Virus record (IMG/VR): IMGVR_UViG_3300029543_000199
Reading direction: 5' to 3' (one strand)
Source: a virus
Taxonomy: Duplodnaviria; Heunggongvirae; Uroviricota; Caudoviricetes
Length of the DNA stretch: 64,000 bases
Positions 17,899 through 33,287 of this stretch are shown one piece after another. Every line of letters begins with the position of its first letter. Position 1 is the stretch's first letter. The translations under genes and the position numbers were made by a program. The notes below the pieces were generated by a model that was not told where the DNA came from, did not search any database, and worked only from the letters and a program-made list of their open reading frames with translations.

Positions 17899-18288
17899 AT
17901 GGCAAAAGTAAAAACAATGGGACAGGCAATCGTAGTAGTATCTGAGGTAAAACTTGATGACATCAAGAAGATTGAGAAGTATCGTCCGGAAGCACTGGTT
18001 CTTAAAGGTGGCGAAGATGGTAAAGAGGAAATCTTCAGAATTGGTACAGGAGCTGGAAAGATCAATACATACGGAGCAAGCTTCGGCGAGGCAACCCGTG
18101 ATGATGAGAAGCTGGCTACTATCACAATGACAACAAACTACGACGGAGATGACATTAAAGGATTCATCGCTGATGAGCTTGGTGCAGCTTTGACAAACCT
18201 CGGAAAACTGGAAAAAACAATCCCGGCTGTTATTGATTCTATTGACAAGGAAAGAACAGCTATCATGAATGGCATCACAGTTGCCTAA
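17899..18288 (+). CDS. Hypothetical protein, probably highly expressed
   Basis: 129 aa, strong RBS AAAAAGGAGATAAGAATTATG, own terminator downstream. Confidence 0.6.
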   Translation: MAKVKTMGQAIVVVSEVKLDDIKKIEKYRPEALVLKGGEDGKEEIFRIGTGAGKINTYGASFGEATRDDEKLATITMTTNYDGDDIKGFIADELGAALTNLGKLEKTIPAVIDSIDKERTAIMNGITVA

Positions 18289-18383: not shown

Positions 18384-18611
18384 ATGATTAAAGTTACAGT
18401 AGGAAACAACGTAAAAAGAAATAGCGTAATCGTAGATGAGGCAGTAACACTGAGATCAGTTCTTGAGGAAAACGACATTGACTACACAAGAGGAACAATG
18501 CATCTGGATGGTTCTACACTGCAGCCTGGTGATATGGACAAATCATTCGAGGAGATGGGAATCAAAGACAAATGCTTCCTGCTGAATGTAGTAAAAGCTG
18601 ACAATGCGTAA
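18384..18611 (+). CDS. Small hypothetical protein (75 aa)
   Basis: RBS AAAAGGAGATTTAACCATG; MIKVTVGNNVKRNSVIVDEAVTLRSVLEENDID... has beta-grasp-like alternation but no C-terminal GG. Confidence 0.55.
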   Translation: MIKVTVGNNVKRNSVIVDEAVTLRSVLEENDIDYTRGTMHLDGSTLQPGDMDKSFEEMGIKDKCFLLNVVKADNA

Positions 18612-18666
18612 ATAACTCAAGCCGACGAACTATCGTCGGTATGCTTACTCATGCTCGGCTTCCGGG
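18612..18666 (+). repeat. 53-nt conserved element, copy B
   Basis: Identical to 17776-17830; followed directly by the terminator. Confidence 0.7.
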
Positions 18667-18712: not shown

Positions 18713-19354
18713 ATGGCAAAGAAGAAAAACAACTTTTATGCGGTGAAACAAGGAAAGAATCCAGGGATATATAAAACATGGGATGAGTGCAAGGCGCAGG
18801 TTGAAGGCTTCAGTGGCGCTTTATACAAAGGATTCTCAACCCGCAAAGAGGCTGAGATTTACTTGAGTGGAAATGTCGAACCTGTCATAGAGAGCGATAA
18901 GAGCAAGGAAGCGGACATTACCATTTATGTAGATGGAAGCTTTGATGTGGCAACAAATGTTTACGGATACGGCTGTGTTGTAATTAAAAAGGACGGTTCG
19001 ATTGGACAGTATTATGGGGCAGGAAACAATCCGGAATGTGTGTTGCTGAGGAATGTCGCGGGGGAAATGCTCGCGGCTATGAGTGCTGTAAGATATGCAA
19101 TCAGAAGCGGATGTAAATCTGTAAATATTTGCTATGACTATAGCGGTATTGAAATGTGGGCTATCGGAGCATGGAAAGCAAATAACGATTTGACATTAAA
19201 ATACTCAACGTCAATGAAGGAATGGCAGGATGAGATCGCAATATCGTTTCAAAAAGTAGCTGCTCATACAGGTGAAAAGTACAACGAAATGGTAGACAAG
19301 CTTGCGAAGTATGCGGTTAGTAATTTCTGCAAGGAAAACAAAAATAGGGAATGA
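18713..19354 (+). CDS. rnhA: Ribonuclease HI with an N-terminal RNA-DNA hybrid-binding domain
   Basis: N-terminus FYAVKQGKNPGIYKTWDECKAQVEGFSGALYKGFSTRKEAEIY (caulimovirus-VI / RNase H1 hybrid-binding-domain pattern). Catalytic segments IYVDGS, AGEMLAAMSA, ICYDYSGIE, VAAHTGEKYNEMVDKLAK. Confidence 0.75.
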   Translation: MAKKKNNFYAVKQGKNPGIYKTWDECKAQVEGFSGALYKGFSTRKEAEIYLSGNVEPVIESDKSKEADITIYVDGSFDVATNVYGYGCVVIKKDGSIGQYYGAGNNPECVLLRNVAGEMLAAMSAVRYAIRSGCKSVNICYDYSGIEMWAIGAWKANNDLTLKYSTSMKEWQDEIAISFQKVAAHTGEKYNEMVDKLAKYAVSNFCKENKNRE

Positions 19355-19498: not shown

Positions 19499-19572
19499 GG
19501 ATTGTTAGCTCAGTGGGTTAGAGCAGTCGGCTCATAACCGACCGGTCATCCGTTCGAGTCGGATACGATCCA
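19499..19572 (+). tRNA. tRNA-Met/Ile2 (anticodon CAT), elongator type
   Basis: GGATTGT-TA-GCTC-AGTGGGTTA-GAGC-A-GTCGG-CTCATAA-CCGAC-CGGTC-ATCCG-TTCGAGT-CGGAT-ACGATCC-A. G1-C72 paired. Confidence 0.8.
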
Positions 19573-19599: not shown

Positions 19600-21189
19600 A
19601 TGTTTAGACCAACTATTACAACCACACCATTGGTCACACAGACAGCAAATACATACTTTGCGAATATCAGAGGAGAAAACTTCAACCATGATGTTACATT
19701 TATCTCAACATTAAGAGCATTAGTAAGTCCAAGAATTGCAGACGGGGAATCGGTGTCCTTGTATTTTAGAGGTACATCATTCGATAAAGAAACTGTAGAA
19801 AGGAATCCGGATGGAGCTGTTCTTGATGCTATGTATAATTCAAGACAATATGAAGATGGGTCTATCGTCATTCATAATCTGTCTGGAAATGCACAGGGAA
19901 ATCTTGCATGTCTGAAATTGATTGAAAAAGCGTTCACAACAAACAATTCTCGTTATGAACGAATTGTCAAAGTAACAGAGTTTTTCAAGAAAACTTTTTA
20001 TGCTTTGTGTTATGTAAATCCTACAAATAAAAAGGTTGTCATATTTGTAGATAATCTCAATATTCGTAGAATGCACTATTTACAGTGTTCAATATTTGCA
20101 TTCTTACCTTGGTATTTTAACCCGGAGGCTGGAGTAACGGAAGATGAAATGGAATTGATCCAGTCTCTGAGAGAAACAACTCCAGAGCGGTATATGAATG
20201 CAATTTCAAAGATTGCTTCTGGATATGATTTCAGAGGAATGTTTATCAGACAGCAGTTGAAAGGGTTTGAAACCGCATACGAAGAACAACAGGTTAGGAT
20301 TGTACAGGAAAATATCAGCGATTACGTAGACCAGATTAGAGGATATAACAATAGTATCTCAACTGCACTGAACAGGAAGAGAGATGCTGAGATTAGACTG
20401 CTAGGTCTAAAGACAAAGATTGCTCAGATGGAAGGAGAGGATTCCGAAATTATGGAATACTTCCTGTGCAATCAGAAACTGGATCTTGAGTATGTCAGAG
20501 GATCAGAGATGACTTTTGTTGTTAAAGATTATCTGATGTACTTTGATGAGGATATGGCAAAGACAGTTATAGATAATAGAAGAAGCTATATCTATAGATA
20601 CATCGGAGATTCTATGGAAAAGGATGATGTCGAGAAGCTGATGTATGCGATCTTCATCGACCAGGCATTGAAATTAAGATTCTGCTGTGCATACCGTATC
20701 AGGCTAGGAGAAAGAGTGGATGGCTTACGGAATTATGATTACAACGAGAGCTACGAAACATATATTCCAAACCCGCATATTGACAGATACAGCTGTCTTG
20801 GAAATTACGAAAGAACGATGAATGAGAGACTGGCTGACAATGATGCAATCGGAGCTATCGAGCAATGTATCTCATCATGCAAGAGTTTGAATTTCGCTGA
20901 CAGTACAGTTATGGAAGTATTTATGGAACGCATGTGTGGAAGAAATGGATACAGACATAACAAATGTATCGAGCTTCCAGATGGCAGCATCGTTGATATG
21001 CGAGGGGCTATCAAGTGGATGAAAGAACAGGAAGCGGCAGAGCAGGTTAAGGAGTCTGAGCAGATCGAATCAACTGAGACAACTGCTAATCCAGATACTG
21101 TAACAGATGAAGAGACGGATACAGAAGCAGTAGACACAGAAGAAACTGAAACAGAGGATGATTTCCTTGAAGAAGACGATTTATTCTAA
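19600..21189 (+). CDS. Hypothetical protein (529 aa) with an acidic C-terminus
   Basis: Long ORF with RBS AAAGGAGGAATCAAAATG; no motif recognised. Confidence 0.6.
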   Translation: MFRPTITTTPLVTQTANTYFANIRGENFNHDVTFISTLRALVSPRIADGESVSLYFRGTSFDKETVERNPDGAVLDAMYNSRQYEDGSIVIHNLSGNAQGNLACLKLIEKAFTTNNSRYERIVKVTEFFKKTFYALCYVNPTNKKVVIFVDNLNIRRMHYLQCSIFAFLPWYFNPEAGVTEDEMELIQSLRETTPERYMNAISKIASGYDFRGMFIRQQLKGFETAYEEQQVRIVQENISDYVDQIRGYNNSISTALNRKRDAEIRLLGLKTKIAQMEGEDSEIMEYFLCNQKLDLEYVRGSEMTFVVKDYLMYFDEDMAKTVIDNRRSYIYRYIGDSMEKDDVEKLMYAIFIDQALKLRFCCAYRIRLGERVDGLRNYDYNESYETYIPNPHIDRYSCLGNYERTMNERLADNDAIGAIEQCISSCKSLNFADSTVMEVFMERMCGRNGYRHNKCIELPDGSIVDMRGAIKWMKEQEAAEQVKESEQIESTETTANPDTVTDEETDTEAVDTEETETEDDFLEEDDLF

Positions 21190-21201
21190 GGAGTACGAGA
21201 T

Positions 21202-22155
21202 ATGAGTAAAATGATAACATTGCCACAGGAAATCCTTAACCAGTACACACAGGAATTTTATGAAATCCTCCGCACTGGAAAGTTTTCTGATGGAAAAATA
21301 AATTTCACAAAGACATTAGGGACTGTTGATAGAAAAGCAACAGTCCTTTTTACTGAAATGGCATGGCAGAAAATGCAGACTCTTATTAGAGAATTTGATA
21401 AAGAAGTTGCATGGCATGGTGTGGCAGAACGATGCGAAGAAAAAGATACATATCTGATTTCGGATATATTGGTTTATCCGCAGGAAGTTACAGGTTCAAC
21501 CGTAACAACAGATCAGAATGAGTATGAGATGTGGTTGATGAAGCAGGAAGATGACGTATTCAACAACATTAGAATGCAGGGACATTCGCATGTAAATATG
21601 TCAACAAGTCCATCAAGTGTGGATTTGAATCTTTATGATGGAATTCTTAGCCAGCTGGACAGCGATATGTTTTATATCTTTATGATATACAACAAGCGAG
21701 GGGAGAAAACAGTAAAATTATATGATCTGAGAGAGAACATTCTTTTTGAAACGGCAGATGTTACAGTCGCCGTCAAAGAAGTCGGAGATTTGACAGGATT
21801 CCTTGAGGAAGCAAAAGAACTGGTTGTTACAAAAACATACAATTACGGCGCTGGGGTTGGAACTTATGGAAACTCTTATCCTGGATATCCAAGCTACGGC
21901 GGATATTCAGCGCAGAAAAAGGAAGAACCGAAAAAGGAGAACTCTAGCCTGGGAAAAACCAGTCCCCTTGTGCAGGGAAATAAAAGTGGCAAGAAGCGCA
22001 AGGGGAAACGTAAGAAAGGAAATAAATCTTCTGGTAAACAGATGAGCATGTCAGATTACGGATACCCTGGCTATTTAGATGACGACGATGATGTATACGG
22101 TGGATACAGTGAATTCCAGGATGAGTATTGGAGACAGAAATACGGATTTGAATAA
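21202..22155 (+). CDS. JAB/MPN (JAMM) metallopeptidase-domain protein with a low-complexity Gly/Tyr- and Lys-rich C-terminal half
   Basis: JAMM signature HSHVNMSTSPSSVD (H-x-H-x7-S-x2-D) with upstream Glu residues. Confidence 0.7.
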   Translation: MSKMITLPQEILNQYTQEFYEILRTGKFSDGKINFTKTLGTVDRKATVLFTEMAWQKMQTLIREFDKEVAWHGVAERCEEKDTYLISDILVYPQEVTGSTVTTDQNEYEMWLMKQEDDVFNNIRMQGHSHVNMSTSPSSVDLNLYDGILSQLDSDMFYIFMIYNKRGEKTVKLYDLRENILFETADVTVAVKEVGDLTGFLEEAKELVVTKTYNYGAGVGTYGNSYPGYPSYGGYSAQKKEEPKKENSSLGKTSPLVQGNKSGKKRKGKRKKGNKSSGKQMSMSDYGYPGYLDDDDDVYGGYSEFQDEYWRQKYGFE

Positions 22156-22171
22156 TAAGGAGATGAGATAA

Positions 22172-22651
22172 ATGACCAGAGATGAATTCATTCAGAATGT
22201 GACAACATGGAGTGAATTGAGAAGCTTCTGCTACGACTATGAGTGTTCGGTTTGTAGCGAAGTATATTCACAGGATGAATTAGATGACTATTTTAATGAG
22301 CGGCTTGTCGATATGGCGAGAGATGCAAGTGATTGGAGTGATCTTTTAGAATCCTTGGAAGATATTCCGACAGGAGCATCTTATTATATTAGAGATGATG
22401 ATGGAGATTTTTCAGAAGCAGATGAAAGTGATTTTGATGATTTAAAGGATGAGGTGCTTGAGTGGGCTGATTATGAGGAAGTATTTGACGATTGCGATGA
22501 AGATGAAGAAGACTACGATGACGAAGAAGAGCCGGAGCCATTCGTAGAAGAAGATCCAGACGATAGATATGAAGTGGGAAATGAAGAAATGTCTATCGCA
22601 GAGTTATTTACTGTACCACAAAACGGAAGCAGAGGAATTTACAACGTATAG
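22172..22651 (+). CDS. Hypothetical highly acidic protein
   Basis: 159 aa, D/E-rich; no E2-like HPN-Cys motif. Confidence 0.5.
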   Translation: MTRDEFIQNVTTWSELRSFCYDYECSVCSEVYSQDELDDYFNERLVDMARDASDWSDLLESLEDIPTGASYYIRDDDGDFSEADESDFDDLKDEVLEWADYEEVFDDCDEDEEDYDDEEEPEPFVEEDPDDRYEVGNEEMSIAELFTVPQNGSRGIYNV

Positions 22652-22660
22652 GAGGATATT

Positions 22661-23332
22661 ATGGATTTAAGTAAGAGTTATGAATTTTTCCAGCCAGAAA
22701 AAGATCAGGCAAGAATCCACATTGTAGGATGTGGATCTGTCGGTTCTACAGTAGCAGAGAACCTTGCAAGATGTGGTGTAACAAAGATGACTTTATGGGA
22801 TTTCGATAAAGTTGAACCACATAACATTGTAAATCAGATGTTCGACCAGAACGATGTTGGCAAACTCAAGGTCGAAGCATTAAAAGATATTCTGACAGAT
22901 ATCAATCCAGAAATTTCTGATCAGATTGAAATCAAACCGGAAGGATGGCAGGGAAAGCTGATGTCGGGATATATCTTCCTGTGTGTAGACAGCATTGAAC
23001 TGAGAAGAGAGATTGTTGAAAAACATTTTGACAGTCCATATGTAAAAGCGGTATTTGATTTTAGAACACTGCTTGAAAGCGCACAGCATTATGCAGCTGA
23101 CTGGTCTGATTCCAAAATGAAGGAAGATTTATTGAACTCGATGCAGTTCTCACATGATGAAGCTAAGGATGAGACACCAATATCCGCTTGTGGTGTTACA
23201 CTTGGTGTAGCGACAACAGTAAGATTGATTTCGGCTCTCGGTGTGAACAACTACATCAATTTCGTAAAAGGCGATGGAATCAAGAAAATGATTATTATGG
23301 ACGGGTTCAAATTTGACCTGTTGGCGTTTTAG
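22661..23332 (+). CDS. E1-like (ThiF/MoeB family) adenylyltransferase
   Basis: IHIVGCGSVGSTVAENLARCGVTKMTLWDFDKVEPHNIVNQ: nucleotide-binding GxGxxG plus DxD...NxxRQ-like segment. Confidence 0.7.
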   Translation: MDLSKSYEFFQPEKDQARIHIVGCGSVGSTVAENLARCGVTKMTLWDFDKVEPHNIVNQMFDQNDVGKLKVEALKDILTDINPEISDQIEIKPEGWQGKLMSGYIFLCVDSIELRREIVEKHFDSPYVKAVFDFRTLLESAQHYAADWSDSKMKEDLLNSMQFSHDEAKDETPISACGVTLGVATTVRLISALGVNNYINFVKGDGIKKMIIMDGFKFDLLAF

Positions 23333-23334
23333 CC

Positions 23335-23532
23335 ATGAGGGATAAGCAAAGAATCGACCTATTCTGCGAAATTTTATCGACTGCGTGGAAAAGAGTACCA
23401 GACATGAGATTCGGTCAGCTAATGTATAACTTCTTTCACGACGAGTATAACTCTGATCCATTTTATATAGAAGATACAGAACTGATTCGTAGCTTCCAAG
23501 CATATGTCGATAAGATTAGCAAGAATGTGTAG
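23335..23532 (+). CDS. Small hypothetical protein
   Basis: 65-aa ORF followed by a terminator. Confidence 0.45.
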   Translation: MRDKQRIDLFCEILSTAWKRVPDMRFGQLMYNFFHDEYNSDPFYIEDTELIRSFQAYVDKISKNV

Positions 23533-23545
23533 TAAAAGTGAATGA

Positions 23546-23571
23546 ACCGCCACGTTGCGTGGCGGTTTTTA
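23546..23571 (+). terminator. Rho-independent terminator
   Basis: CCGCCACG-TTGC-GTGGCGG-TTTTT. Confidence 0.75.
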
Positions 23572-23575
23572 TAAA

Positions 23576-23847
23576 GAACATGCAATGATATTTATCTCTT
23601 TGAGATAGCTTTCAGCCGTTGGCGGAAGTAGCAACTTGATAGGGAATGCAACCCCGCCGGGATAGAAGGCAACGGAGGATGCGAGAGTTTCATGAAATTC
23701 CAGCAAAGGTTCCGAAGAAGATGAATCCCGGAACAGATAGGTCATAAGTACATGATAATCAATGGATTATACCAAGCAGAGACATGATCAAGATCAGGAT
23801 CATGCAGCACGGATACAACTAAGACATACATTAGATTGCAGTTCTTG
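23576..23847 (+). ncRNA. Retron-like noncoding element R1 (candidate msr-msd) immediately upstream of the reverse transcriptase
   Basis: ORF-free. Flanking inverted repeats GAACATGCAAT (23576-23586) / ATTGCAGTTC (23835-23844). Conserved block TTCAGCCGTTGGCGGAAGTAGCAACTTGATAGG. Member of a 5-copy family. Confidence 0.4.
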
Positions 23848-23859
23848 AAAGGAGAAAAT

Positions 23860-24999
23860 ATGTATTACATAACAGTAAAACAGCCACCATCATACCACCA
23901 GATGACTCTGGAAGAGTTCCTATTTGGATCTGGTTCTGGCGCACAGTTAATAAATGCAAATTTAACGAATACAAGGACGTATGAGGTTGAAGAAGTTAGT
24001 GATCGATTTCTTCAGCTTGTTGATATTGACAAGCTTATTGCAAAACTCGAATGGTTCAACGAAAGAACAGAATATTTAAGAGAGAAGCCACGGCATGAAT
24101 GGTACTATGAGTTCCATATTCCGAAAAAGAGTGGCGGACTTAGAAAGATTGACGCTCCGGAACCGGAACTCAAAGAAGCATTACGCACTCTGAAAAATAT
24201 ATTTGAGGTTGATTTCAAAGCGCTTTATCACACATCAGCATTCGCATATATACAAGGTAGAAGTACGTTAGATCTTTTGAAAAGGCATCAGGCGAATGAA
24301 AGTAAGTGGTTTGAGAAGTTAGACTTATCCAATTTCTTTGGAAGCACAACAATGGAATGGGTGCTGCATATGTTTTCGATGGTGTTCCCATTCTCGGAAG
24401 TAATGAAAGATGACAAAGGAAAAGAAGCACTTGCAAAGGCTCTTGAGCTTGGATTCTTGGATGGGGGACTTCCACAGGGAACTCCGTTGTCTCCAACCAT
24501 TACAAACATTATGATGATTCCGGTTGATTTTGAAGTTGCAAGAACACTCAGAGAATACAATCACCAGAGGTTTGTATATACAAGATATGCTGATGATTTC
24601 CAGATTTCATCTAAATATGGGTTTAGCTTTATGGAAATCCAGAATGTAATCGTATCAATACTGAATGATTTCGGAGCGCCGTTTACAATCAAGAAAGAGA
24701 AGACGAGATATGGATCGTCAGCGGGTCAGAACTGGAATCTTGGATTGATGCTCAACAAAGATAATGAAATCACGATAGGTCACAAAAAGAAAAGACAATT
24801 CCAGGCAATGCTTTCATCGTATGCTATGGATAGAAAGAATGGAATCGCCTGGGATAAAAGTGATATTCAAACGATGGACGGGTATAGAAACTATTACCGG
24901 ATGGTTGAGGGAGAAAAGATTGACGGAATCGTTAAACATCTCAGCGAGAAATTTGGTGTGGATATCGTGAAATCAATTAAAGAAGACCTCACAGCTTAG
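23860..24999 (+). CDS. Reverse transcriptase, retron-type (not DGR, not group II intron)
   Basis: Start at the ATG with RBS GAAAGGAGAAAATATG. Motifs FHIPKKSGGLRKIDAP, FAYIQGRS, LDLSNFFGS, LPQGTPLSP, FVYTRYADDF. Post-YADD NWNLGLMLN resembles the retron VTG segment. No maturase or endonuclease domain. Confidence 0.85.
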   Translation: MYYITVKQPPSYHQMTLEEFLFGSGSGAQLINANLTNTRTYEVEEVSDRFLQLVDIDKLIAKLEWFNERTEYLREKPRHEWYYEFHIPKKSGGLRKIDAPEPELKEALRTLKNIFEVDFKALYHTSAFAYIQGRSTLDLLKRHQANESKWFEKLDLSNFFGSTTMEWVLHMFSMVFPFSEVMKDDKGKEALAKALELGFLDGGLPQGTPLSPTITNIMMIPVDFEVARTLREYNHQRFVYTRYADDFQISSKYGFSFMEIQNVIVSILNDFGAPFTIKKEKTRYGSSAGQNWNLGLMLNKDNEITIGHKKKRQFQAMLSSYAMDRKNGIAWDKSDIQTMDGYRNYYRMVEGEKIDGIVKHLSEKFGVDIVKSIKEDLTA

Positions 25000-25043
25000 G
25001 CTGTAGGTCTTCAAAGGTATAGAAAGGTTTTAAAAGGTAGCAA

Positions 25044-25439
25044 ATGATGGAAGAACGAAAGAAAATCTTGTCAATGTGGATTGGTAATAGAGTTAAAGAT
25101 AATGAAATCGCAAAATGCATGTTCGATATAACCGTTCCAAAACTTGAGGAGATGCTGTATGAGAATGAATATATCAAAGAAGTGTGTGCGATGCTGGATA
25201 AATACGGAATCAAGCACATGAAAGTTGATACCATTCCTGGATCGTTCAATTTAGACAGAGATTGGATAGAGACCGATTCATCAACTCCAATAGAGTGTGC
25301 AATCGAATATCCTGGAGCATACCCGATAAACTGGGATATAGAAGATGTAGTCATGTTAGAGAAAATGGATCAAAACGGAGACATTATCATTAGAGTAATG
25401 TGGATTACAGAAGATGGGAAATTCGTACAGAACCACTAA
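25044..25439 (+). CDS. Hypothetical protein adjacent to the RT (possible retron accessory protein)
   Basis: 131-aa ORF, no motif recognised. Confidence 0.5.
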   Translation: MMEERKKILSMWIGNRVKDNEIAKCMFDITVPKLEEMLYENEYIKEVCAMLDKYGIKHMKVDTIPGSFNLDRDWIETDSSTPIECAIEYPGAYPINWDIEDVVMLEKMDQNGDIIIRVMWITEDGKFVQNH

Positions 25440-25453
25440 GTGACAAATAATAA

Positions 25454-25702
25454 GCTATGCAATGAAATTACTGTTTTACAGTGCTTTTTGCTGTTAGCGA
25501 AAGTAACAACTCGATCAGGAAAGAAACATACCACCCTGCAGAAGACGGGTGCCTCCTTCCGGATCACCATCCAGGAACTGAAGACTCGAGAAGAAGCAAT
25601 ATTGATAATCAGGAACTTATACCAAATCAAACCCAGAAAGTTATCTCCAGAAGAAACTTCCAGGAAGCGATATACAGGTAAACATGCACTAGATTGCATA
25701 GC
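25454..25702 (+). ncRNA. Retron-like element R2a (first of a tandem pair)
   Basis: Inverted repeats GCTATGCAATG (25454-25464) / ATTGCATAGC (25693-25702). Conserved block TGCTGTTAGCGAAAGTAACAACTCGATCAGG. Confidence 0.35.
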
Positions 25703-25709
25703 AAATCAT

Positions 25710-25990
25710 AAATGTACAATGAAATTATATCCATTGGATATGCTTCTTGCCGTCGGCGGAAGTGACAACTTGATAGGGCAGAGAACCTACCCGAGAGCGC
25801 CAGAGGAGGAGCTGAGCACAGACTCATAAGGAACCTCATAACATAATAAATACAAACTGTCAACAGGATAACTAATTGAAATTCAATGAAACATAGAATC
25901 AAGGATACTCGAAATCCAAATCATCGCAGCATCGACATGCATAAATCAGATCCTGGATAAGCTCATCTGCACATATTAGATTGTACATTT
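25710..25990 (+). ncRNA. Retron-like element R2b (second of the tandem pair)
   Basis: Inverted repeats AAATGTACAAT (25710-25720) / ATTGTACATTT (25980-25990), 11/11. Conserved block TGCCGTCGGCGGAAGTGACAACTTGATAGGG. Confidence 0.35.
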
Positions 25991-26013
25991 AAACAAATTT
26001 AAGGAGGAAGAAT

Positions 26014-26472
26014 ATGTATTTTAACACTAGCATCAATTTGATAAAAGTACCAAATAGATTTAACCATTCAAAACCAAATGAAGACAAAATGGAGGCTTGT
26101 AGAGAGTTCTACCGGACGAACCATCGTCTTGACAGGGATATTGTAGTTGATGAAAATATGGTACTTAAAGACGGATATATCGGATATCTTGTCCTCATTG
26201 AAAACGAAGCCAAGGTTGTATGTGTTAAGCAGACAAATACAAGACAGGTCACACTGGTTTATGGAGTGCATCCTGGTGTTGATAAGGAATATCGCTGGAA
26301 GATGGTAGATGATACTGAAGGCTCAGAGAATCTTAAAATCGGATCTCATGCAATAGTCAGAACAACATTTGGAGATGTAGAAGTTACAGTTACAAAGATT
26401 GAGAAAATTACAAGATCTAAGCTAAAGACGATAGGGCATATAAAAAGAGTTGTTAAGTGCCTGCCGGAGTAA
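26014..26472 (+). CDS. Hypothetical protein
   Basis: 152-aa ORF, RBS AAGGAGGAAGAATATG. Confidence 0.55.
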   Translation: MYFNTSINLIKVPNRFNHSKPNEDKMEACREFYRTNHRLDRDIVVDENMVLKDGYIGYLVLIENEAKVVCVKQTNTRQVTLVYGVHPGVDKEYRWKMVDDTEGSENLKIGSHAIVRTTFGDVEVTVTKIEKITRSKLKTIGHIKRVVKCLPE

Positions 26473-26476
26473 CAGT

Positions 26477-26647
26477 ATGAGATGTATTTATTTGGATAAA
26501 AGAGACTTTCTGTCCAAAGAAGACATGCGAATACATACAGCATTTGTTTGCATGAACAAAGAATCTGATAAGTATAAAACATTTAGTATTGATAAGGCTT
26601 ATATTTGTGGAAATTGCCTACATCACACTAAAGAAAGGGAAAAGTAA
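26477..26647 (+). CDS. Small Cys-containing hypothetical protein
   Basis: Start at the internal ATG with RBS GGAGTAACAGTATG; C...CGNCLHH. Confidence 0.35.
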   Translation: MRCIYLDKRDFLSKEDMRIHTAFVCMNKESDKYKTFSIDKAYICGNCLHHTKEREK

Positions 26648-27210
26648 TGAATTTTTATATAGCAGATATGCATTTTGGTCACAAGAATATCATCCAGTAT
26701 GATAATAGACCGTTTGACTCAGTGGAGGAAATGGATAAGGCGTTGATCCAACTGTGGAATGAGACTGTCGGCAGTGACGATATAGTATATATCCTAGGAG
26801 ATTTTAGCTGGTACAAAGAAGATAAAACAGCCTTTATTCTCGGATGTTTAAAGGGGCATAAAGTTCTGGTAAAAGGAAATCATGACCATATTTCTCCAAA
26901 AGTTGCAAGAAATTTTGACAGAATCTGCGAGTATGCAGAAATTAAAGACGGAGATGAGAAGGTTATACTATCCCATTATCCGATACCATTTTGGAATGGA
27001 CAGCACAGGAATACAATACACCTGTATGGTCATGTTCATACATCAAGTCAGTACAATTACTGCCTGAATATTGAGAAAGAATTAAGACAGCTTCAGGGTA
27101 TTCCAATGAGGATGTTTAATGTTGGATGTATGGTAGAGTACATGAACTACATGCCGAGAACATTAAGCGAGATACTGAGGTGGAAAGGAGATAAGGATGG
27201 ACAGGAGTAA
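26647..27210 (+). CDS. Calcineurin-like metallophosphoesterase
   Basis: DMHFGH, ILGDFSWY, KGNHD, GHVH motifs. Confidence 0.7.
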   Translation: MNFYIADMHFGHKNIIQYDNRPFDSVEEMDKALIQLWNETVGSDDIVYILGDFSWYKEDKTAFILGCLKGHKVLVKGNHDHISPKVARNFDRICEYAEIKDGDEKVILSHYPIPFWNGQHRNTIHLYGHVHTSSQYNYCLNIEKELRQLQGIPMRMFNVGCMVEYMNYMPRTLSEILRWKGDKDGQE

Positions 27211-27505
27211 TTTTAATCCTCAAGTCGGAGATCTCGTAAGAGTTCGATTGTGGGAGGACATGGCAAAAGAGTTTGGTATTGATGAAGATGGTAATATACC
27301 ATGCAAATTCAGTTTCGTTGGTTATATGGAAAATATGTGCGGCGATGAATTTATGATTACGAAGATTATAGATGGAAATTACATCGGTCATCCAAAAGGA
27401 GGCGGCGTATCTATATCTATTGATATGCTCGAACCTGTAATTGAGGATGAAGTTGACGGGTCGGAAATTGATGATTTTCTAAGTGGAATTAAGATCAATA
27501 GTTAG
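27197..27505 (+). CDS. Hypothetical protein
   Basis: 102-aa ORF, overlaps the upstream gene by 14 nt. Confidence 0.5.
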   Translation: MDRSNFNPQVGDLVRVRLWEDMAKEFGIDEDGNIPCKFSFVGYMENMCGDEFMITKIIDGNYIGHPKGGGVSISIDMLEPVIEDEVDGSEIDDFLSGIKINS

Positions 27506-27514
27506 GAGGAAGGT

Positions 27515-27925
27515 ATGAAACTTATTATAGTTTCTGGACAAGAAGGGACAGATGTAGAATCACTGTTTGAGAAAGTTATATCTGAAAACGGATATGTGTA
27601 TCAATATGCTCCTAAAATGGTATTTCCAGAAAATTCGATGCTTTTACGACATCCGAGAGCTTTATATAATAATGTAAGAAAAGTTGTAAGGAAACATATA
27701 GAGAATGGTCAGGATTTGTTTGTTCTGACATTTTCTGATTATGCAATGTATGGTATCAGAGTAGAAATCAAGAAGAATGATTTTGAAGGGGCAATAGTAC
27801 ATCAATTAAAGAATGATGGAGAGGATATTATATCAGAAATGAATCCAGAGACGGCAAAATATGAATACGTTGATGGAATTTTTGATACTATAGACAAAGC
27901 TCTTAATGAACTACTTTGGGGATAA
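27515..27925 (+). CDS. Hypothetical protein
   Basis: 136-aa ORF, RBS AGGAGGAAGGTATG. Confidence 0.5.
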   Translation: MKLIIVSGQEGTDVESLFEKVISENGYVYQYAPKMVFPENSMLLRHPRALYNNVRKVVRKHIENGQDLFVLTFSDYAMYGIRVEIKKNDFEGAIVHQLKNDGEDIISEMNPETAKYEYVDGIFDTIDKALNELLWG

Positions 27926-27952
27926 GGTATTACTGCACATAGTGCATTAGTA

Positions 27953-28213
27953 TACTCACAATGAAAATGGATTGTTTTTAGCGAAAGTATTTACTACGAC
28001 AGCAATACATATTTACAATCACTCCTGCTGTTAGCGAGAGTTCGACAATGGTTCTTGCATCTCAAAACTTTGTACGTTTTCAAAATAAGATCATTTAACT
28101 GCGTTAAAGATCAAATTTTGAAAACGTACAGTTTTTCGATGGCACTTCCAGCATATGCTAATCTCTTAATTCGGACAACACGAACCAGAGATTACGCATA
28201 CGGATTGTGAGTA
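27953..28213 (+). ncRNA. Retron-like element R3
   Basis: Inverted repeats TACTCACAAT (27953-27962) / ATTGTGAGTA (28204-28213), 10/10. Two core-like blocks: TTTAGCGAAAGTATTTAC and CTGCTGTTAGCGAGAGTTCGACAATGG. Confidence 0.35.
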
Positions 28214-28234
28214 AAAAAGGAGGAATTTAATAAA

Positions 28235-29356
28235 ATGAAAGCAATTAACCGTGGTGACAACACATACGATATTTTTGATGACACAATGCAGGTGTTTGAA
28301 AAGTTGCCTGCTCAGCCATATATCGTCAGATTTTCAGAAATCAGAGGCTTCTTTTTGGAGAAATATAATGATATGGAAATCAAGGAGCCAAAAGTTTATG
28401 GTGTACATACAGAAAAAGTAAACAAAGTAATGAATATGTTTGAAAGGCAGGATAGAAATCTCGGAGTCATCCTTAGCGGAGACAAAGGAATCGGAAAATC
28501 TCTGTTTGCAAAGATGCTGTCGAACGCTGCGATTGAAAGAGGTATTCCAATGATTGTAGTTGACAGATATATTCCTGGCATCGCTTCTTATATAGAAGAT
28601 ATTGAACAGGAAATCATGGTTCTGTTTGATGAATTCGATAAAACATTCGGAGAGGTTAAGTCAAAGGCAGGAGAAGCGTCGCCACAAACAAATCTATTAT
28701 CTTTATTTGACGGGTTATCGTCAGGAAAGAAACTGTTTGTCGTGACTTGCAATGAGCTGTATAAACTGAATGAGTATCTGATTAACAGACCGGGGCGGTT
28801 CCATTATCATTTTAGATTTGAGTATCCGTCCGCAAATGAGATCCGAGAATATCTGACAGATAAATTGCAGCAAGAATACCAGAAAGAAATTGATAATGTT
28901 ATTTCTTTCTCAAATAAAATCAGCTTAAACTATGACTGCTTGCGCGCTATCGCAACTGAGCTGAATACCGGATTGACATTCTGTGATGCGATTAAGGATC
29001 TGAATATCGTAAACACAGAGCAGCAGTCATATAACCTTATGCTGAGATTCAAGAATGGAGTCAGCTTCAAAGCGAAGGATATCAGTATGGATATGTTTGG
29101 TGACGATGATGATAAAAATGTGTATATGTACGATAATAAAGGTCGAAACAATGTAGACATTACGTTCAATCCTTGCAATGCAGTCTATGATACAGGAAAG
29201 TTCGCACATGTAATACCTGCTGATGCGATTAAAGTTGAATATTATTTTGGAGACAGTGAAGATGAAAAGGCTATGGAAACTGCATTAAAAGACGCAGGAG
29301 TGGAATGCCTTGTAATCAATAGAAAGGTATCAAGAAATATTCATTACAATGTTTAA
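28235..29356 (+). CDS. AAA+ ATPase
   Basis: Walker A GDKGIGKS; Walker B VLFDEFDK. Confidence 0.7.
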   Translation: MKAINRGDNTYDIFDDTMQVFEKLPAQPYIVRFSEIRGFFLEKYNDMEIKEPKVYGVHTEKVNKVMNMFERQDRNLGVILSGDKGIGKSLFAKMLSNAAIERGIPMIVVDRYIPGIASYIEDIEQEIMVLFDEFDKTFGEVKSKAGEASPQTNLLSLFDGLSSGKKLFVVTCNELYKLNEYLINRPGRFHYHFRFEYPSANEIREYLTDKLQQEYQKEIDNVISFSNKISLNYDCLRAIATELNTGLTFCDAIKDLNIVNTEQQSYNLMLRFKNGVSFKAKDISMDMFGDDDDKNVYMYDNKGRNNVDITFNPCNAVYDTGKFAHVIPADAIKVEYYFGDSEDEKAMETALKDAGVECLVINRKVSRNIHYNV

Positions 29357-29367
29357 GGTGGTAAAAG

Positions 29368-30654
29368 ATGGGGTATAAAGATATCTATAAGTTGCAATCC
29401 ATTACTGGTGCAAATGCAAAGTGCGAGTTCATTAAAGCACATCGCGATGATACATACTTTAAAAGATTTCTATATTTTGCACTTAACCCAATGCTTACAT
29501 ACAACATATCGAAAAAATCAACAGATAAGCTGATGGCTGAAGAAAATTTCGACGGTCAAAAGCTTATCTTTTTTAATGACATTTTTGAATGTTGTGAGCA
29601 TTTGTCAAGGCTCAGAGGTATGGATGATGCAACATTAAGACAGGTAAAGATGCTTCTGAATGTGAAGTATCCGGAAAGGGATGAGAGAGATCTGTATATA
29701 CAGCTGCTTTCAAAGAAAGTTCGCCTTGGAATTGCAGCTAAGACGATCAATAAGATCATTCCGAATCTTATCCCGGAATGGGAAGTGCAGCAAGCTTATA
29801 CCGTTGAGAAGTATCCGTTGAAAGAAGGAACGGAATTCTGGCTTACACAAAAGCTTAATGGAGCAAGAGCAACTTTGTATGAGGGACAGCTGCTCGCAAG
29901 AAGCGGTATGCCGTATAAAGGACTGGAACATATAACTGATGCATTGTCGTGGTTGAGAGTTGCAGGGTTTGTTGCTGACGGAGAATTGACACTGAAAGAT
30001 AAAGGCGACCTGAGTGACAATGAAGCATTCAGAGTTTCTACTGGAATATTGAACTCCGATAATGTTAATAAAACGGTGATTTGCTATACGATTTTTGACA
30101 TGGTTCCGGTAAAAGATTTCGATGCATTAAAGCCGCAGGTCACATACAGATATCGCAGGGATATTCTTAATCAGTTTGCAGAGAGAATTGCAGACACAGA
30201 TGGTGCTGTAAAGGTTCTCCCAGTTCTATATCATGGCACAGATCAGTCCAAAATCGAAGAGTTATTAGAACAGATGGTTCGAGAAGACAAGGAAGGATTG
30301 ATGATTAACACAGATGCTCCATACCGAAGAACAAGGCATAAAGGAATTCTGAAAGTAAAGAGATTCTACACGATGGATTTACCGATTATCCGTTGTGAGG
30401 AAGGAACTGGTAGATTATCCGGTACATTAGGAGCGTTTGTTCTGAAGTACAAAGAGAACGAGGTAAAAGTAGGATCGGGATTCACAGACGAGCAGAGAGA
30501 GCAGTTCTGGAATAACCGTGATGATATGGAAGGATTACTTTGCGAAGTGAAGTACAAAGAAATATCTCAGGACAAGGGAACTGGGCTTGAAAGTTTACAG
30601 TTCCCGGTATTTGTCGGAATCAGAACAGATAAAACAGAAGTGAGCTACAGTTAG
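29368..30654 (+). CDS. Nucleotidyltransferase of the ATP-dependent DNA/RNA ligase superfamily
   Basis: Motif I KLNGAR (Asn where Asp is usual), III FVADGELTL, IV EGLMIN, V ILKVK, OB-fold segment VKVGSGFTDEQREQFW. Confidence 0.55.
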   Translation: MGYKDIYKLQSITGANAKCEFIKAHRDDTYFKRFLYFALNPMLTYNISKKSTDKLMAEENFDGQKLIFFNDIFECCEHLSRLRGMDDATLRQVKMLLNVKYPERDERDLYIQLLSKKVRLGIAAKTINKIIPNLIPEWEVQQAYTVEKYPLKEGTEFWLTQKLNGARATLYEGQLLARSGMPYKGLEHITDALSWLRVAGFVADGELTLKDKGDLSDNEAFRVSTGILNSDNVNKTVICYTIFDMVPVKDFDALKPQVTYRYRRDILNQFAERIADTDGAVKVLPVLYHGTDQSKIEELLEQMVREDKEGLMINTDAPYRRTRHKGILKVKRFYTMDLPIIRCEEGTGRLSGTLGAFVLKYKENEVKVGSGFTDEQREQFWNNRDDMEGLLCEVKYKEISQDKGTGLESLQFPVFVGIRTDKTEVSYS

Positions 30655-30666
30655 GAGGTAAATTAC

Positions 30667-31122
30667 ATGTTATTGCATAAGCAAAAGTCGCTATATCATC
30701 TTAGCGATGATGAGAAGTCAGATTTAATGGATATGATCCTTGTTGCAATCAACGAAGTGACAAAGTTCAATCCGAATGAATCTGACGGTAGCCGGTATGA
30801 TTATGGTGTTGATTTCTCCAACATGCCACCAATCAATCCATATGTGGTATCTAATGTATTGCAGGATTTAGGGTACGAAGAGGGAGATGTAGACACTAAC
30901 GGCTGGGAGAATGATTATTGGCAGTCGTTTACTCATCCGGATAAAAAGAAATTTCCTCCAATGCAGATGAGCGGCACAAGTTGGATTCATGAATGTCACT
31001 TACACGGAGAAGAAGACGAGGATGCTTTATATCAGCACCTTGAAGATGATGAGGAATATGCAGATCGAATCAAACATGGCTTGGAGTTAATCGGAAAGGC
31101 AATGAATCGTGCAGACGGGTAG
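30667..31122 (+). CDS. Hypothetical protein
   Basis: 151-aa ORF. Confidence 0.5.
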   Translation: MLLHKQKSLYHLSDDEKSDLMDMILVAINEVTKFNPNESDGSRYDYGVDFSNMPPINPYVVSNVLQDLGYEEGDVDTNGWENDYWQSFTHPDKKKFPPMQMSGTSWIHECHLHGEEDEDALYQHLEDDEEYADRIKHGLELIGKAMNRADG

Positions 31123-32543: not shown

Positions 32544-32843
32544 ATGAATGATGCAATGAAATTTATATATCGGATTACCTCTGGAGGAGCAAATCATGGC
32601 GTGATCGAATCATTTTCTGGTCGAAACAGCTACTGGTTTGCTTCTATTTTATTCAGAAGATTTATTCGGAACAACGCAGCAATCATGTATGATCCAAAAA
32701 ATAATTGTTTCGGAACAAGAATTGGAGGGAAAGTATACGATGTGACTGGAGATGTCACGGAAAATCACAAATGGATTTCATGGGTAGAATACTCAAATAA
32801 GAAGTCCAAAGATCAAGTCACGAAAGAAGATATTATGTTTTAA
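32544..32843 (+). CDS. Hypothetical protein
   Basis: 99-aa ORF with RBS. Confidence 0.45.
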   Translation: MNDAMKFIYRITSGGANHGVIESFSGRNSYWFASILFRRFIRNNAAIMYDPKNNCFGTRIGGKVYDVTGDVTENHKWISWVEYSNKKSKDQVTKEDIMF

Positions 32844-32845
32844 AC

Positions 32846-33092
32846 CGTAATGATATTACTGCTTTGCAGTGCTTCTTGCCGTCGGCGGAAGTGACAACTT
32901 GATGAGGAAAATAACCGTCACCAAGCAGCTGGAAGACGCGGCAGCACGAGATGCTGAGCACGCCGTAAACCCAGAAATAATTTCAGGATATACATAACCC
33001 ACTGATAATCAATACCTCCATAAGAGGAGGAACCTGAAGATCAAAGATCTACTGGGCGTGATTACACGGGCTACCGTACATTAGATTACAGT
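32846..33092 (+). ncRNA. Retron-like element R4
   Basis: 5' block CCGTAATGATATTACTG...CTTCTTGCCGTCGGCGGAAGTGACAACTTGATGAGG (identical over 31 nt to R2b); 3' block ACATTAGATTACAG. Confidence 0.35.
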
Positions 33093-33287
33093 TTAAACAG
33101 GAAAGGAAGTGTTATGAAATGGCTGAAAACACCTGATTGTAATGACAACTGTTTGTAAGGCAGAACAAGATGATTAAGAAAGAAATTGATCGACTTGGAG
33201 ATGTTACAGATGAAGACATGGCTATGCACAGGGAATTTTATAAGCTTGGATGTGAATATCTGAATAAGTTGAAAGAGGATAGATAGG

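What the first reader, a model, noticed from the sequence alone, without database searches (positions are those of the whole stretch)
23546..24999. Retron-type reverse transcriptase preceded by a terminator-delimited noncoding element with flanking inverted repeats
The RT at 23860-24999 has full motifs 1-7 (FHIPKKSGGLRKIDAP, LPQGTPLSP, VYTRYADDF) and a post-YADD stretch NWNLGLMLN resembling the retron VTG region. Motif 4 QGxxxSP (not the DGR-type [I/L]GxxxSQ) together with the absence of any TR/VR pair argues against a diversity-generating element. No maturase or endonuclease domain is present, so it is not a group II intron. Directly upstream, after a strong intrinsic terminator (23546-23571), lies an ORF-free 270-nt element (23576-23847). 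It is bracketed by inverted repeats GAACATGCAAT / ATTGCAGTTC and contains a conserved block, GCCGTTGGCGGAAGTAGCAAC in this copy and TTAGCGAAAG / TTAGCGAGAG in its paralogs. From memory, this recalls the conserved msr segment around the branching G of characterised retrons (Ec86 msr ...CCCUUAGCGAGAGG...). The a1-msr-msd-a2-RT order is the retron architecture. An RNase H1 gene needed for msDNA maturation lies 4.5 kb upstream (18713-19354). A phage-borne retron is itself unusual, since retrons are mostly known as host anti-phage systems.
Basis: partly seen in the sequence, partly recalled or inferred. Interest (0 to 1): 0.85.

Follow-up and report, generated by a model that had tools for sequence, protein, structure and literature searches.

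The report
Phage retron with five template RNAs
A roughly 115-kb gut phage carries one retron-type reverse transcriptase and five copies of a retron-like template RNA but no toxin partner, an arrangement fixed across a large phage clade, which suggests the phage uses retron reverse transcription for its own purposes.

Summary
ORF 23860-24999 encodes a reverse transcriptase (RT) whose best profile and PDB matches are all retron RTs. The 270-nt element upstream (23576-23844) has retron ncRNA anatomy. An 8-12 bp closing stem (a2/a1) is flanked by two opposing G residues and is followed by two msr-like hairpins. All of these helices are supported by heavy covariation across more than 80 distinct relatives.

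The window holds five such elements for one RT, at 23576, 25454, 25709, 27953 and 32842. Relatives hold two to five. All 213 model hits lie on the RT strand, typically just before and just after the RT gene. No known retron effector is nearby. All 80 loci chosen through a neighbouring gene also carry the RT, so it is a core gene of a large clade of gut Clostridia phages.

The Ec86 "UUAGCGAGAG" resemblance is positional coincidence. The RNase H1 gene accompanies the RT in only 8 of 82 loci. Prophage-borne retrons are classical, not unusual.

Best reading: an effector-less, multi-template retron. msDNA synthesis and its biological role are inferred, not shown.

The parts
23545..23574 (+). Intrinsic-terminator-like hairpin (AACCGCCACG-TTG-CGTGGCGGTT) plus T-run. 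It ends the upstream ThiF operon and abuts the a2 arm.
   Evidence: A hairpin occupies the same position in relatives with 66% RT identity (upstream sequences).
23576..23844 (+). ncRNA copy 1, retron msr/msd-like. a2 arm 23576-23586. Candidate branching G 23587. Hairpin 1 23593-23607. Hairpin 2 23608-23629. Conserved single-stranded tail AGCAACUUGAUAGGG 23630-23644. Sequence-variable middle (putative msd) about 23645-23815. Conserved ACAUACAUUAG ending in the opposing G 23834. a1 arm 23835-23844.
   Evidence: Fold z = -3.5. CM R1 79 bits, E = 1.9e-15. Covariation of the hairpins and of the closing stem.
23860..24999 (+). Retron-type reverse transcriptase, 379 aa. RBS AGGAG at 23850-23854. YADD catalytic motif. 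Region X reads LLKRH and region Y reads NWNLG.
25454..25702 (+). ncRNA copy 2. a2 25454-25463, G 25464, opposing G 25692, a1 25693-25702. The stem is 10 bp, GCTATGCAAT/ATTGCATAGC.
   Evidence: CM R1 89 bits.
25709..25991 (+). ncRNA copy 3. a2 25709-25720, G 25721, opposing G 25979, a1 25980-25991, a 12-bp stem. It is followed by an RBS and the 152-aa ORF 26014-26472.
   Evidence: CM R1 81 bits. The 152-aa family follows an element in 14 loci.
27953..28213 (+). ncRNA copy 4, a divergent subtype. a2 27953-27962, G 27963. An extra 5' hairpin, then hairpin 2 (28022-28042). A long msd-like hairpin at 28058-28141 and a 3' hairpin. Opposing G 28203, a1 28204-28213. It is followed by the AAA ATPase gene 28235-29356.
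   Evidence: Compensatory changes in the long hairpin among 7 orthologs. Only a weak CM R1 hit, 18 bits.
32842..33094 (+). ncRNA copy 5. a2 32842-32851 with one mismatch, G 32852, opposing G 33084, a1 33085-33094. The a2 arm overlaps the stop codon of the upstream ORF.
   Evidence: CM R1 78.5 bits.

Best explanation
This is an effector-less, multi-template retron carried as a core module by a clade of roughly 100-130 kb phages of gut Clostridia.

Shown:
- One retron-clade RT gene.
- Five paralogous ncRNAs of 250-285 nt on the same strand within 9.5 kb.
- Each ncRNA is closed by its own covarying a2/a1 stem, which is flanked by two opposing G residues.
- The ncRNAs share a conserved 5' (msr-like) module of two hairpins plus an ACAACUUGAKAGG tail. 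Copy 4 carries a divergent version.
- The interior differs in sequence between copies.

Inferred:
- The RT recognises the shared 5' module on every copy.
- It primes from the 2'-OH of the G just 3' of a2 (G23587 in copy 1).
- It copies the RNA leftward from the nucleotide 5' of a1 (template start at G23834) into the variable interior.
- With RNase H trimming, this would yield four or five different branched msDNAs with similar 5' ends.

The RT is fixed in the clade and no toxin gene travels with it. I therefore think the msDNAs most likely serve the phage itself. They could be decoys or sponges for host DNA-sensing or nuclease defences. Alternatively, RT-dependent processing of the 5' leaders could control the genes that start 10-30 nt after each a1. 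A classical abortive-infection guard seems less likely.
For: RT identity:
- The best PADLOC models are all retron RTs: II-A 158 bits, I-A 135, XIII 135, III-A 131.
- NCBIfam retron_St85_RT scores 170 bits, against group II RT 76 and Drt2 35.
- The top PDB sequence hits are retron RTs, from Ec83 (5.5e-22) through Ec78, Ec67 and Kva2 to Ec86 (1.2e-7), against group II RTs at about 5e-6.
- YADD is invariant across the family.

ncRNA structure:
- 74 distinct a2/a1 arm pairs.
- In the closing helix, all 12 pairs show changes on both sides. The covariation score is 0.657 against 0.243 in shuffles, with 0 of 500 shuffles as high, and it collapses when the partner is slid.
- G lies on both sides of the stem in 78 of 121 elements when G is not imposed.
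- Hairpins 1 and 2: 90.5% of cells paired over 84 distinct sequences. Hairpin 2 is 100% paired, with double changes in all 6 pairs.
- The long msd-like hairpin of copy 4 carries compensatory changes.
- The interior evolves at about the rate of third codon positions: 57-60% identity against 51-59%.

Linkage of RT and ncRNA:
- 213 CM hits across the window and 129 related loci are all on the RT strand. They cluster about 280-350 nt before the RT start and 20-60 nt after its stop.
- There are no hits in 10 loci of unrelated retron-type RTs, and none elsewhere in the 64-kb window.
- Paralogous 5' modules within one genome are more alike (62%) than modules from genomes whose RT is under 85% identical (49-52%).

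Core status: 80 of 80 loci selected through the neighbouring ThiF gene carry the RT.

No effector: no PADLOC effector among the 11 neighbouring proteins scanned, two of them (RNase H1, ligase) against Pfam only, and the genes downstream of the RT vary between phages.
Against: - No msDNA has been observed. Priming at the G is inferred from position only.
- The retron signature motifs are degenerate: LLKRH for NAxxH and NLG for VTG. Only the H and the G are kept, which Mestre 2020 calls the most conserved residues.
- The NCBIfam score is below the St85 family cut-off (170 against 235).
- Copies 1, 2, 3 and 5 lack an obvious single long msd hairpin. Their minimum-free-energy interiors are branched and inconsistent.
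- I found no consistent pairing partner for the conserved tail.
- Use of the four distal copies by the RT is inferred from shared modules, strand and proximity.
- A tyrosine integrase next to a tRNA-Tyr gene, and relatives on contigs of up to 359-692 kb, suggest a temperate lifestyle. That keeps a prophage-defence role open.
- The RT co-occurs almost perfectly with an upstream ThiF/E1-like block. That block could in principle be an unrecognised effector.
Confidence: 0.55

Rival explanations
1. This is a conventional prophage-encoded retron defence system (abortive infection or superinfection exclusion). The effectors are unrecognised genes. They could be the variable genes that follow each ncRNA copy, with one msDNA guarding one toxin. 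Or they could be the conserved upstream ThiF/E1-like block.
For: - Classical retrons are prophage-borne and pair with effectors (Ec86 in a P2-like prophage).
- The window has a tyrosine integrase beside a tRNA-Tyr gene.
- Each a1 arm is followed within 10-30 nt by an RBS and an ORF in 52 of 72 cases.
- ThiF co-occurs with the RT in 76 of 82 and 80 of 80 loci.
Against: - No neighbouring protein matches any PADLOC retron effector model.
- The genes after the elements are heterogeneous: RT, a 152-aa family, a metallophosphoesterase, an ATPase, HTH and zinc-ribbon proteins.
- The RT is a fixed, syntenic core gene down to about 50% identity within the loci examined, and the family spans 433 clusters at 50% identity overall. 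Defence islands are usually sporadic.
Confidence: 0.22
2. The elements are primarily cis-acting 5' leader RNAs, for example RT-binding translational operators, mRNA stabilisers or processing sites. They organise expression of the early and accessory gene cassettes. DNA synthesis, if any, occurs only on the copy next to the RT.
For: - The elements are packed between ORFs with no spare sequence. The a2 arm of copy 5 overlaps the preceding stop codon, and copy 3 starts 7 nt after copy 2.
- There is no conserved promoter upstream of a2.
- a1 lies just upstream of an RBS.
- The elements mark the borders of variable gene cassettes downstream of the RT.
Against: - The two opposing G residues and the a2/a1 stem are kept on all paralogs, not only the copy next to the RT.
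- The invariant YADD shows that polymerase activity is under selection.
- A pure leader function would not require retron geometry.
Confidence: 0.15
3. This is a different kind of retroelement that only resembles a retron. It could be a DGR, a group II intron remnant, or a UG/Abi/DRT-type RT that makes cDNA by another priming route.
For: - Regions X and Y are non-canonical.
- The ncRNA matches no Rfam family at E up to 1, including the RT-1 to RT-19 motifs.
- The interior of most copies is not a simple msd hairpin.
Against: - No TR/VR-like match of any element interior exists elsewhere in the 64 kb.
- Motif 4 is QGxxxSP.
- There are no group II RNA hits and no maturase or endonuclease domain.
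- Retron models outscore group II and DRT models by 95-150 bits.
Confidence: 0.08

Closest known systems
Retron Ec86 / St85-family retrons (type II-A)
   Same: - It is the best-scoring RT profile family (PADLOC RT_II-A, NCBIfam NF038233).
- The ncRNA lies upstream of the RT on the same strand.
- The geometry is the same, a2-G ... G-a1: Ec86 TGCGCACCCTTA-G ... G-TAAGGGTGCGCA against the window's TGCAAT-G ... G-ATTGCA.
- It is prophage-borne.
   Different: - RT identity is only 25%, and the score is below the family cut-off.
- NAxxH and VTG are not kept.
- No NDT-like effector gene is present, whereas one lies upstream of the msr in Ec86.
- There are five ncRNAs per RT instead of one.
- The ncRNAs are 250-285 nt, against about 170 nt.
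- There is no ncRNA sequence homology. The UUAGCGAGAG match is positional coincidence.
Retron type I-A (Ec78/Eco7, Ec83), solved RT structures
   Same: These are the best PDB sequence matches: Ec83 RT at 5.5e-22 over residues 73-375, including the region after motif 7.
   Different: Type I-A retrons carry PtuA/PtuB ATPase-nuclease effectors and a single ncRNA. The AAA ATPase at 28235-29356 in the window matches no PADLOC retron effector (one weak PDC-S73 hit, E=2.4e-4) and is present in only 9 of 82 loci.
RT-1 to RT-19 RNA motifs (Weinberg et al. 2017, PMC5737381)
   Same: They are structured RNAs found next to bacterial RT genes, and many were suggested to be retron RNAs.
   Different: None matches the window at E up to 1. 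That paper states that no RT motif occurs on both sides of an RT gene. Here, elements flank the RT and recur downstream.
Engineered multiplexed retron ncRNA arrays (from my own knowledge, not checked here)
   Same: One retron RT reverse-transcribes several ncRNAs that share the msr but differ in the msd.
   Different: Those arrays are synthetic. I found no report of a natural multi-ncRNA retron.
Retron-like RTs noted in other phages (Staphylococcus jumbo phages MarsHill and Madawaska; Klebsiella phage 4LV2017; Pseudomonas Pf phages)
   Same: They are retron-type RT domains encoded in phage genomes, with no known function.
   Different: Identity to this RT is only 26-31%. No ncRNA arrays have been described for them. 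MarsHill gp206 has a different N-terminal domain of about 200 aa.

Membership tests
Retron | The RT belongs to the retron/retron-like clade. | tested here: met
   The best profile and PDB hits are all retron RTs, well above group II, DRT and Abi models. This rests on best hits, not on a rooted phylogeny.
Retron | Region X motif NAxxH between RT2 and RT3. | tested here: inconclusive
   The aligned segment reads LLKRH. Only the H is kept, and it is family-invariant within (K/R)(R/K)HQ. Mestre 2020 calls H the most conserved residue.
Retron | Region Y VTG triplet in RT7. | tested here: inconclusive
   The aligned segment reads NLG within the nearly invariant NWNLG. Only the G is kept. Mestre 2020 calls G the most conserved residue.
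Retron | A contiguous ncRNA on the RT strand whose ends form the a1/a2 inverted-repeat stem. | tested here: met
   The stems are 8-12 bp. There are 74 distinct arm pairs, and all 12 pairs show double-sided changes.
Retron | A branching G immediately 3' of a2, opposed by a G immediately 5' of a1. | tested here: met
   G lies on both sides in 78 of 121 elements without imposing it. It is present in all five window copies. This is positional evidence only.
Retron | One to three short msr hairpins. | tested here: met
   Two hairpins, and three in copy 4, with strong covariation.
Retron | A long stable msd stem-loop. | tested here: inconclusive
   It is clear and covarying in copy 4, at 28058-28141. 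Copies 1, 2, 3 and 5 have branched interiors that fold inconsistently.
Retron | Production of a 2'-5' branched RNA-DNA molecule (msDNA). | not testable with these tools
   This needs expression and nucleic-acid analysis.
Retron (tripartite defence system, types I-XIII) | A cognate effector gene or domain adjacent to the RT and ncRNA. | tested here: not met
   No PADLOC effector hit was found among the neighbours. The RT has no fused domain. The downstream genes vary between phages.
Diversity-generating retroelement | A TR/VR repeat pair with adenine-specific differences, Avd, and RT motif 4 [LIV]GxxxSQ. | tested here: not met
   No second copy of any element interior exists in the 64 kb. Motif 4 is QGTPLSP.
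Group II intron | Ribozyme domains I-VI flanking an RT with a maturase (X) domain. | tested here: not met
   There are no group II RNA hits. Only RVT_1 is found in Pfam. The group II RT model scores 76 bits against a cut-off of 300.
UG/Abi/DRT reverse transcriptases | The RT clusters with AbiA, AbiK, Abi-P2 or UG classes. | tested here: not met
   Drt2 scores 35 bits and Drt3a 21 bits, against 170 bits for the retron model. No DRT or Abi model is among the top 25 PADLOC hits.

The most novel reading that the evidence does not exclude
A large clade of gut phages has domesticated a retron as a core gene for its own use. A single RT services three to five dispersed template RNAs, which sit as 5' leaders of early and accessory gene cassettes. 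It makes several different msDNAs without any toxin partner. That would make it a phage-benefiting retron (counter-defence decoys or RT-dependent control of gene expression), not a host immune system, and a natural counterpart of engineered multiplexed retrons.
Probability: 0.4. Interest if true: 0.85.

Novelty: new variant of a known kind. Interest (0 to 1): 0.72.

Why it matters
Retrons are currently understood as tripartite bacterial immune systems: one RT, one ncRNA and one effector. This case has no recognisable effector, has arrays of ncRNAs around one RT, and is fixed in a large and diverse phage clade (433 clusters at 50% identity with E up to 1e-30; more than 550 IMG/VR contigs).

If msDNAs are made, three things follow.
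- Retron reverse transcription would have a role in a phage's own biology.
- There would be a natural rule set for one RT recognising many templates: a conserved msr module with a free interior and private a1/a2 stems. That is directly useful for multiplexed retron editing.
- There would be a testable entry point into why abundant gut Clostridia phages need an RT.

Tried and rejected
- AlphaFold2 model of the RT from a 16-sequence alignment gave pLDDT 51.7 and pTM 0.39. It was too poor for fold search and I did not use it.
- I searched for a conserved pairing partner for the ACAACUUGAKAGG tail. No consistent position emerged. Only a subset of elements has a complement 18-43 nt before a1.
- I looked for a conserved promoter upstream of a2. 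Only general A+T richness is present.
- I looked for DGR-like targets of the variable interiors in the window. None exist.
- Minimum-free-energy folds of 109 elements gave inconsistent interiors.
- Sequence-only nhmmer was less sensitive than the covariance model: 126 hits against about 170.
- Rfam at E up to 1 over 23300-33500 gave only two chance hits.
- Phage GenBank records hold no DNA match. At protein level there is only a 41% metagenomic relative.
- PDB, Pfam, PHROG and PADLOC searches on the conserved upstream proteins (529 aa, 317 aa, 159 aa) gave nothing.
- Ten literature searches found no description of this family or of natural multi-ncRNA retrons.
- One preprint from September 2026, listed (10.64898/2026.09.22.753630, coevolutionary mining of non-coding elements), mentions RTs and the human gut. 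It could not be opened, so I cannot exclude prior description there.
Full report
**1. What is in the sequence**

The stretch 23545-23574 is a 10-bp hairpin with 7 G-C pairs, followed by a T-run on the + strand. Immediately after it, 23576-23844 has no + strand ORF of 50 aa or more. It folds better than all 200 shuffles, with z = -3.5. An RBS (AGGAG, 23850-23854) and an ATG at 23860 open a 379-aa ORF that ends at 24999. The ORF matches Pfam RVT_1 at E = 2.8e-20. They are conserved or invariant in alignments of 8 and 24 family members: YTRYADDF, QGTxxSP and NWNLG.

**2. The RT is retron-type**

- All of the 25 listed PADLOC models (of 65 matched) are retron RTs. The best are II-A at 158 bits, I-A at 135, XIII at 135 and III-A at 131.
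- NCBIfam gives retron_St85_RT at 170 bits, which is below its cut-off of 235. The group II RT/maturase model scores 76 bits, Drt2 35 and Drt3a 21.
- Against PDB sequences the top hits are retron RTs: Ec83 at 5.5e-22, then Ec78, a St85-family RT, Ec67, Kva2 and Ec86. Group II RTs appear at about 5e-6.
- Identity to the Ec86 RT is 25%.
- Mestre et al. 2020 give two retron signatures, NAxxH (region X) and VTG (region Y), and say that H and G are the most conserved residues. Here the aligned segments read LLKRH and NLG, so only the H and the G survive. Both are invariant in the family.
- In a scan of species-representative genomes, identity drops from at least 44% (the family) to at most 31% (everything else). 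The family is therefore well separated.
- It is also very large. There are 433 cluster-50 representatives at E up to 1e-30, and the 150 listed range from 216 to 500 aa, most between 370 and 400. More than 558 IMG/VR stretches encode a relative, mostly on contigs of 60-140 kb.

I conclude that the RT lies in the retron/retron-like clade but in none of the described types. This rests on best hits, not on a rooted tree.

**3. The upstream element has retron ncRNA geometry**

The arms GAAC-A-TGCAAT (23576-23586) and ATTGCA-GTTC (23835-23844) pair. A G follows the 5' arm (23587) and a G precedes the 3' arm (23834). This is the "two opposing G" arrangement of retron msr/msd transcripts (figure legend read). 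It is also the arrangement I verified in Ec86: TGCGCACCCTTA-G ... G-TAAGGGTGCGCA.

After the G come two short hairpins, 23593-23607 and 23608-23629, and then a conserved tail, AGCAACUUGAUAGGG.

- Across the window and 81 RT-centred loci I recovered 113 elements with a closing stem of at least 6 bp, of which 109 are distinct. They have 74 different arm pairs.
- 80% of the distinct elements have at least 8 contiguous pairs with G on both sides, against 2.8% in shuffles.
- When G is not imposed, 78 of 121 best stems still have G on both sides.
- I made a gap-free alignment of 56 arm pairs, curated from 83 by dropping obviously spurious stems. In it all 12 pairs show double-sided changes. The covariation score is 0.657 against 0.243 in shuffles, with 0 of 500 shuffles as high, and pairing collapses when the partner is slid. 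Pairs 5 and 6 from the outside, which my selection did not force, are paired in 48 and 54 of 56 sequences.
- For the two hairpins, a covariance-model alignment of 84 distinct sequences gives 90.5% paired cells and a covariation score of 0.767 against 0.284, again with 0 of 500 shuffles as high. Hairpin 2 is 100% paired, with double changes at all six pairs.

The interior of the element is another matter.
- Among orthologs whose RT is 87-90% identical at protein level, the interior is 57-60% identical. That is about the rate of RT third codon positions (51-59%). The 5' module is 82-85% identical.
- Minimum-free-energy folds of the interiors are inconsistent.
- I found no fixed partner for the conserved tail.
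- Copy 4 is the exception. It has a textbook long hairpin (28058-28141) and a 3' hairpin, both with compensatory changes among seven orthologs.

**4. One RT, five elements**

The core of hairpin 2 occurs five times in the window with no mismatch, always on the + strand. Model R1, a 78-nt covariance model of the 5' module, finds copies at 23579, 25456, 25713 and 32844 (E below 1e-14) and weakly at 27955. It finds nothing else in the 64 kb. Each copy has its own arm sequence:
- TGCAAT/ATTGCA
- GCTATGCAAT/ATTGCATAGC
- TAAATGTACAAT/ATTGTACATTTA
- TACTCACAAT/ATTGTGAGTA
- GTAAT/ATTAC

Each copy should therefore fold on itself and not onto a paralog.

Related loci hold two to five detectable copies. 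Summing three searches gives 57 + 111 + 45 = 213 hits over the window and 129 related loci, and all lie on the RT strand. Ten loci with unrelated retron-type RTs give none. The typical layout is one copy 280-350 nt before the RT start, one 20-60 nt after its stop, and more further downstream. Paralogous 5' modules within one genome are more alike (62%) than modules from genomes whose RT is under 85% identical (49-52%). That fits joint recognition by the resident RT.

The elements are packed tightly between genes.
- The a2 arm of copy 5 overlaps the preceding stop codon.
- Copy 3 starts 7 nt after copy 2.
- In 52 of 72 cases an RBS and an ORF start 10-30 nt after a1. These ORFs are the RT (30 cases), a 152-aa family (14), a metallophosphoesterase (7) and assorted small proteins.
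- No promoter motif is conserved upstream of a2.

**5. Context**

The conserved neighbours all lie upstream of the RT: a ThiF/E1-like protein (76 of 82 loci), a 529-aa protein and a 317-aa protein. The genes downstream vary between phages.

None of the 11 neighbouring proteins I scanned matches a PADLOC retron effector, two of them (RNase H1, ligase) having been scanned against Pfam only. ThiF matches only the nucleotide-binding part of the CBASS E1-E2 models.

I then selected loci through ThiF alone, at 59-97% identity. All 80 of 80 carry the RT, at a median of 1.2 kb downstream. The RT is therefore a fixed gene of the clade, not a sporadic island.

The window also holds a tyrosine integrase (3103-4125, minus strand) next to a tRNA-Tyr gene, a tmRNA gene and an NAMPT gene. 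Some RT relatives lie on contigs of 359-692 kb, so a temperate lifestyle is possible. The relatives are binned mostly with gut Clostridia MAGs: Lachnospiraceae, Oscillospiraceae and Ruminococcus.

**6.

I confirmed my recollection of the Ec86 msr by an exact match in 48 E. coli genomes. It lies next to a gene annotated as a retron St85 family RT, inside a P2-like prophage. In Ec86, TTAGCGAGAGG covers the end of a2, the branching G and the 5' arm of the first hairpin. In the window, the look-alike GTTAGCGAGAGT occurs only in copy 4. There it forms the loop and 3' arm of hairpin 2, about 65-75 nt downstream of the candidate G. Copy 1 reads GTTGGCGGAAGT. The resemblance is therefore not homology. 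It has no bearing on the retron reading, which rests on geometry and covariation.

Phage or prophage carriage of retron-type RTs is not unusual in itself.

**7. Mechanism**

Shown: the anatomy described above.

Inferred from established retron biochemistry (Mestre 2020 figure legend):
- The RT binds the shared 5' module.
- It uses the 2'-OH of the G after a2 as primer.
- It copies the RNA from the nucleotide 5' of a1 into the interior.
- RNase H, host or phage, removes the template.

The conserved ...ACAUUAG before a1 would then encode a common msDNA 5' end. The sequence-free interiors would give four or five different msDNAs.

The biological role is not resolved. Core-gene status and the lack of an effector argue against a standard abortive-infection guard. 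They point to a use by the phage itself: msDNA decoys against host DNA-sensing or nuclease systems, or RT-dependent processing of the leaders of downstream genes. A defence role with unrecognised effectors remains a serious rival, and so does a purely cis-regulatory role for the distal copies.

**8. Novelty**

- Rfam has no match for the element at E up to 1.
- Weinberg et al. 2017 state that their RT-1 to RT-19 motifs never occur on both sides of an RT gene.
- Ten literature searches found no description of this family or of any natural multi-ncRNA retron.
- One possibly relevant preprint could not be read.

I class this as a new variant of a known kind. It has a retron-type RT and retron-type ncRNA geometry. 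The ncRNAs come in arrays, there is no effector, and the module is fixed in a phage clade.

Noticed in passing
window 46712-47042 (+): A full-length tmRNA gene with tag peptide ANRQMLAVA is encoded by the phage (Rfam 91 bits; ARAGORN). The window also has tRNA-Met (19499-19572), tRNA-Gln (60808-60880) and tRNA-Tyr (4157-4240, minus strand).
   Followed up: no
window 13460-13532 (+): A RAGATH-16 RNA scores 89 bits against a gathering score of 65.6. It lies downstream of a sigma-70-region-4/HTH protein gene (11469-12728).
   Followed up: no
window 12798-12977, and 11397-11423: Three perfect tandem copies of a 58-nt unit (reported as 64-nt overlapping copies) lie just after the sigma-like gene. 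The unit contains GTTTCCCCGTGGGTTACGGTT. A related 27-nt copy lies just before the gene.
   Followed up: no
window 17772-17828 and 18610-18666: An exact 57-nt direct repeat (AAATAACTCAAGCCGACGAACTATCGTCGGTATGC...) follows two paralogous small ORFs, 17899-18288 and 18384-18611. It contains a hairpin, so it may be a terminator or another small RNA.
   Followed up: no
window 19600-23532 (+): A block of a 529-aa, a 317-aa and a 159-aa protein, a ThiF/E1-like adenylyltransferase (22661-23332) and a 65-aa ORF lies immediately upstream of the RT. It is present in 61-76 of 82 loci. ThiF is more conserved than the RT itself (59-97% identity). The three larger partners have no Pfam, PHROG, PADLOC or PDB match. 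It could be a ubiquitin-like or adenylation system of unknown role, and it might be functionally tied to the RT.
   Followed up: partly
window 3103-4125 (-) and 4157-4240 (-): A tyrosine integrase (phrog_1, 1.1e-39) lies directly beside a tRNA-Tyr gene. This suggests a temperate or integrative lifestyle. RT relatives occur on contigs of up to 692 kb.
   Followed up: partly
window 51751-53211 (+): A nicotinamide phosphoribosyltransferase gene (phrog_448, 9e-163). Phage NAD+ salvage genes are known counter-measures to NAD-depleting defences (from my own knowledge).
   Followed up: no
window about 33470-33830: An ORF-poor stretch of about 350 nt lies downstream of copy 5, with G+C-rich segments. 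It matches no Rfam family at the gathering threshold and was not examined further.
   Followed up: no
L015:3163-4527 (also L145, P0122, P0129, P0131 and others): A subset of family RTs is about 455-480 aa long. In L015 the cause is an insertion of about 77 aa directly after motif 1 (after ...PKxxxG), at the point where the others read LRKIDAP.
   Followed up: no
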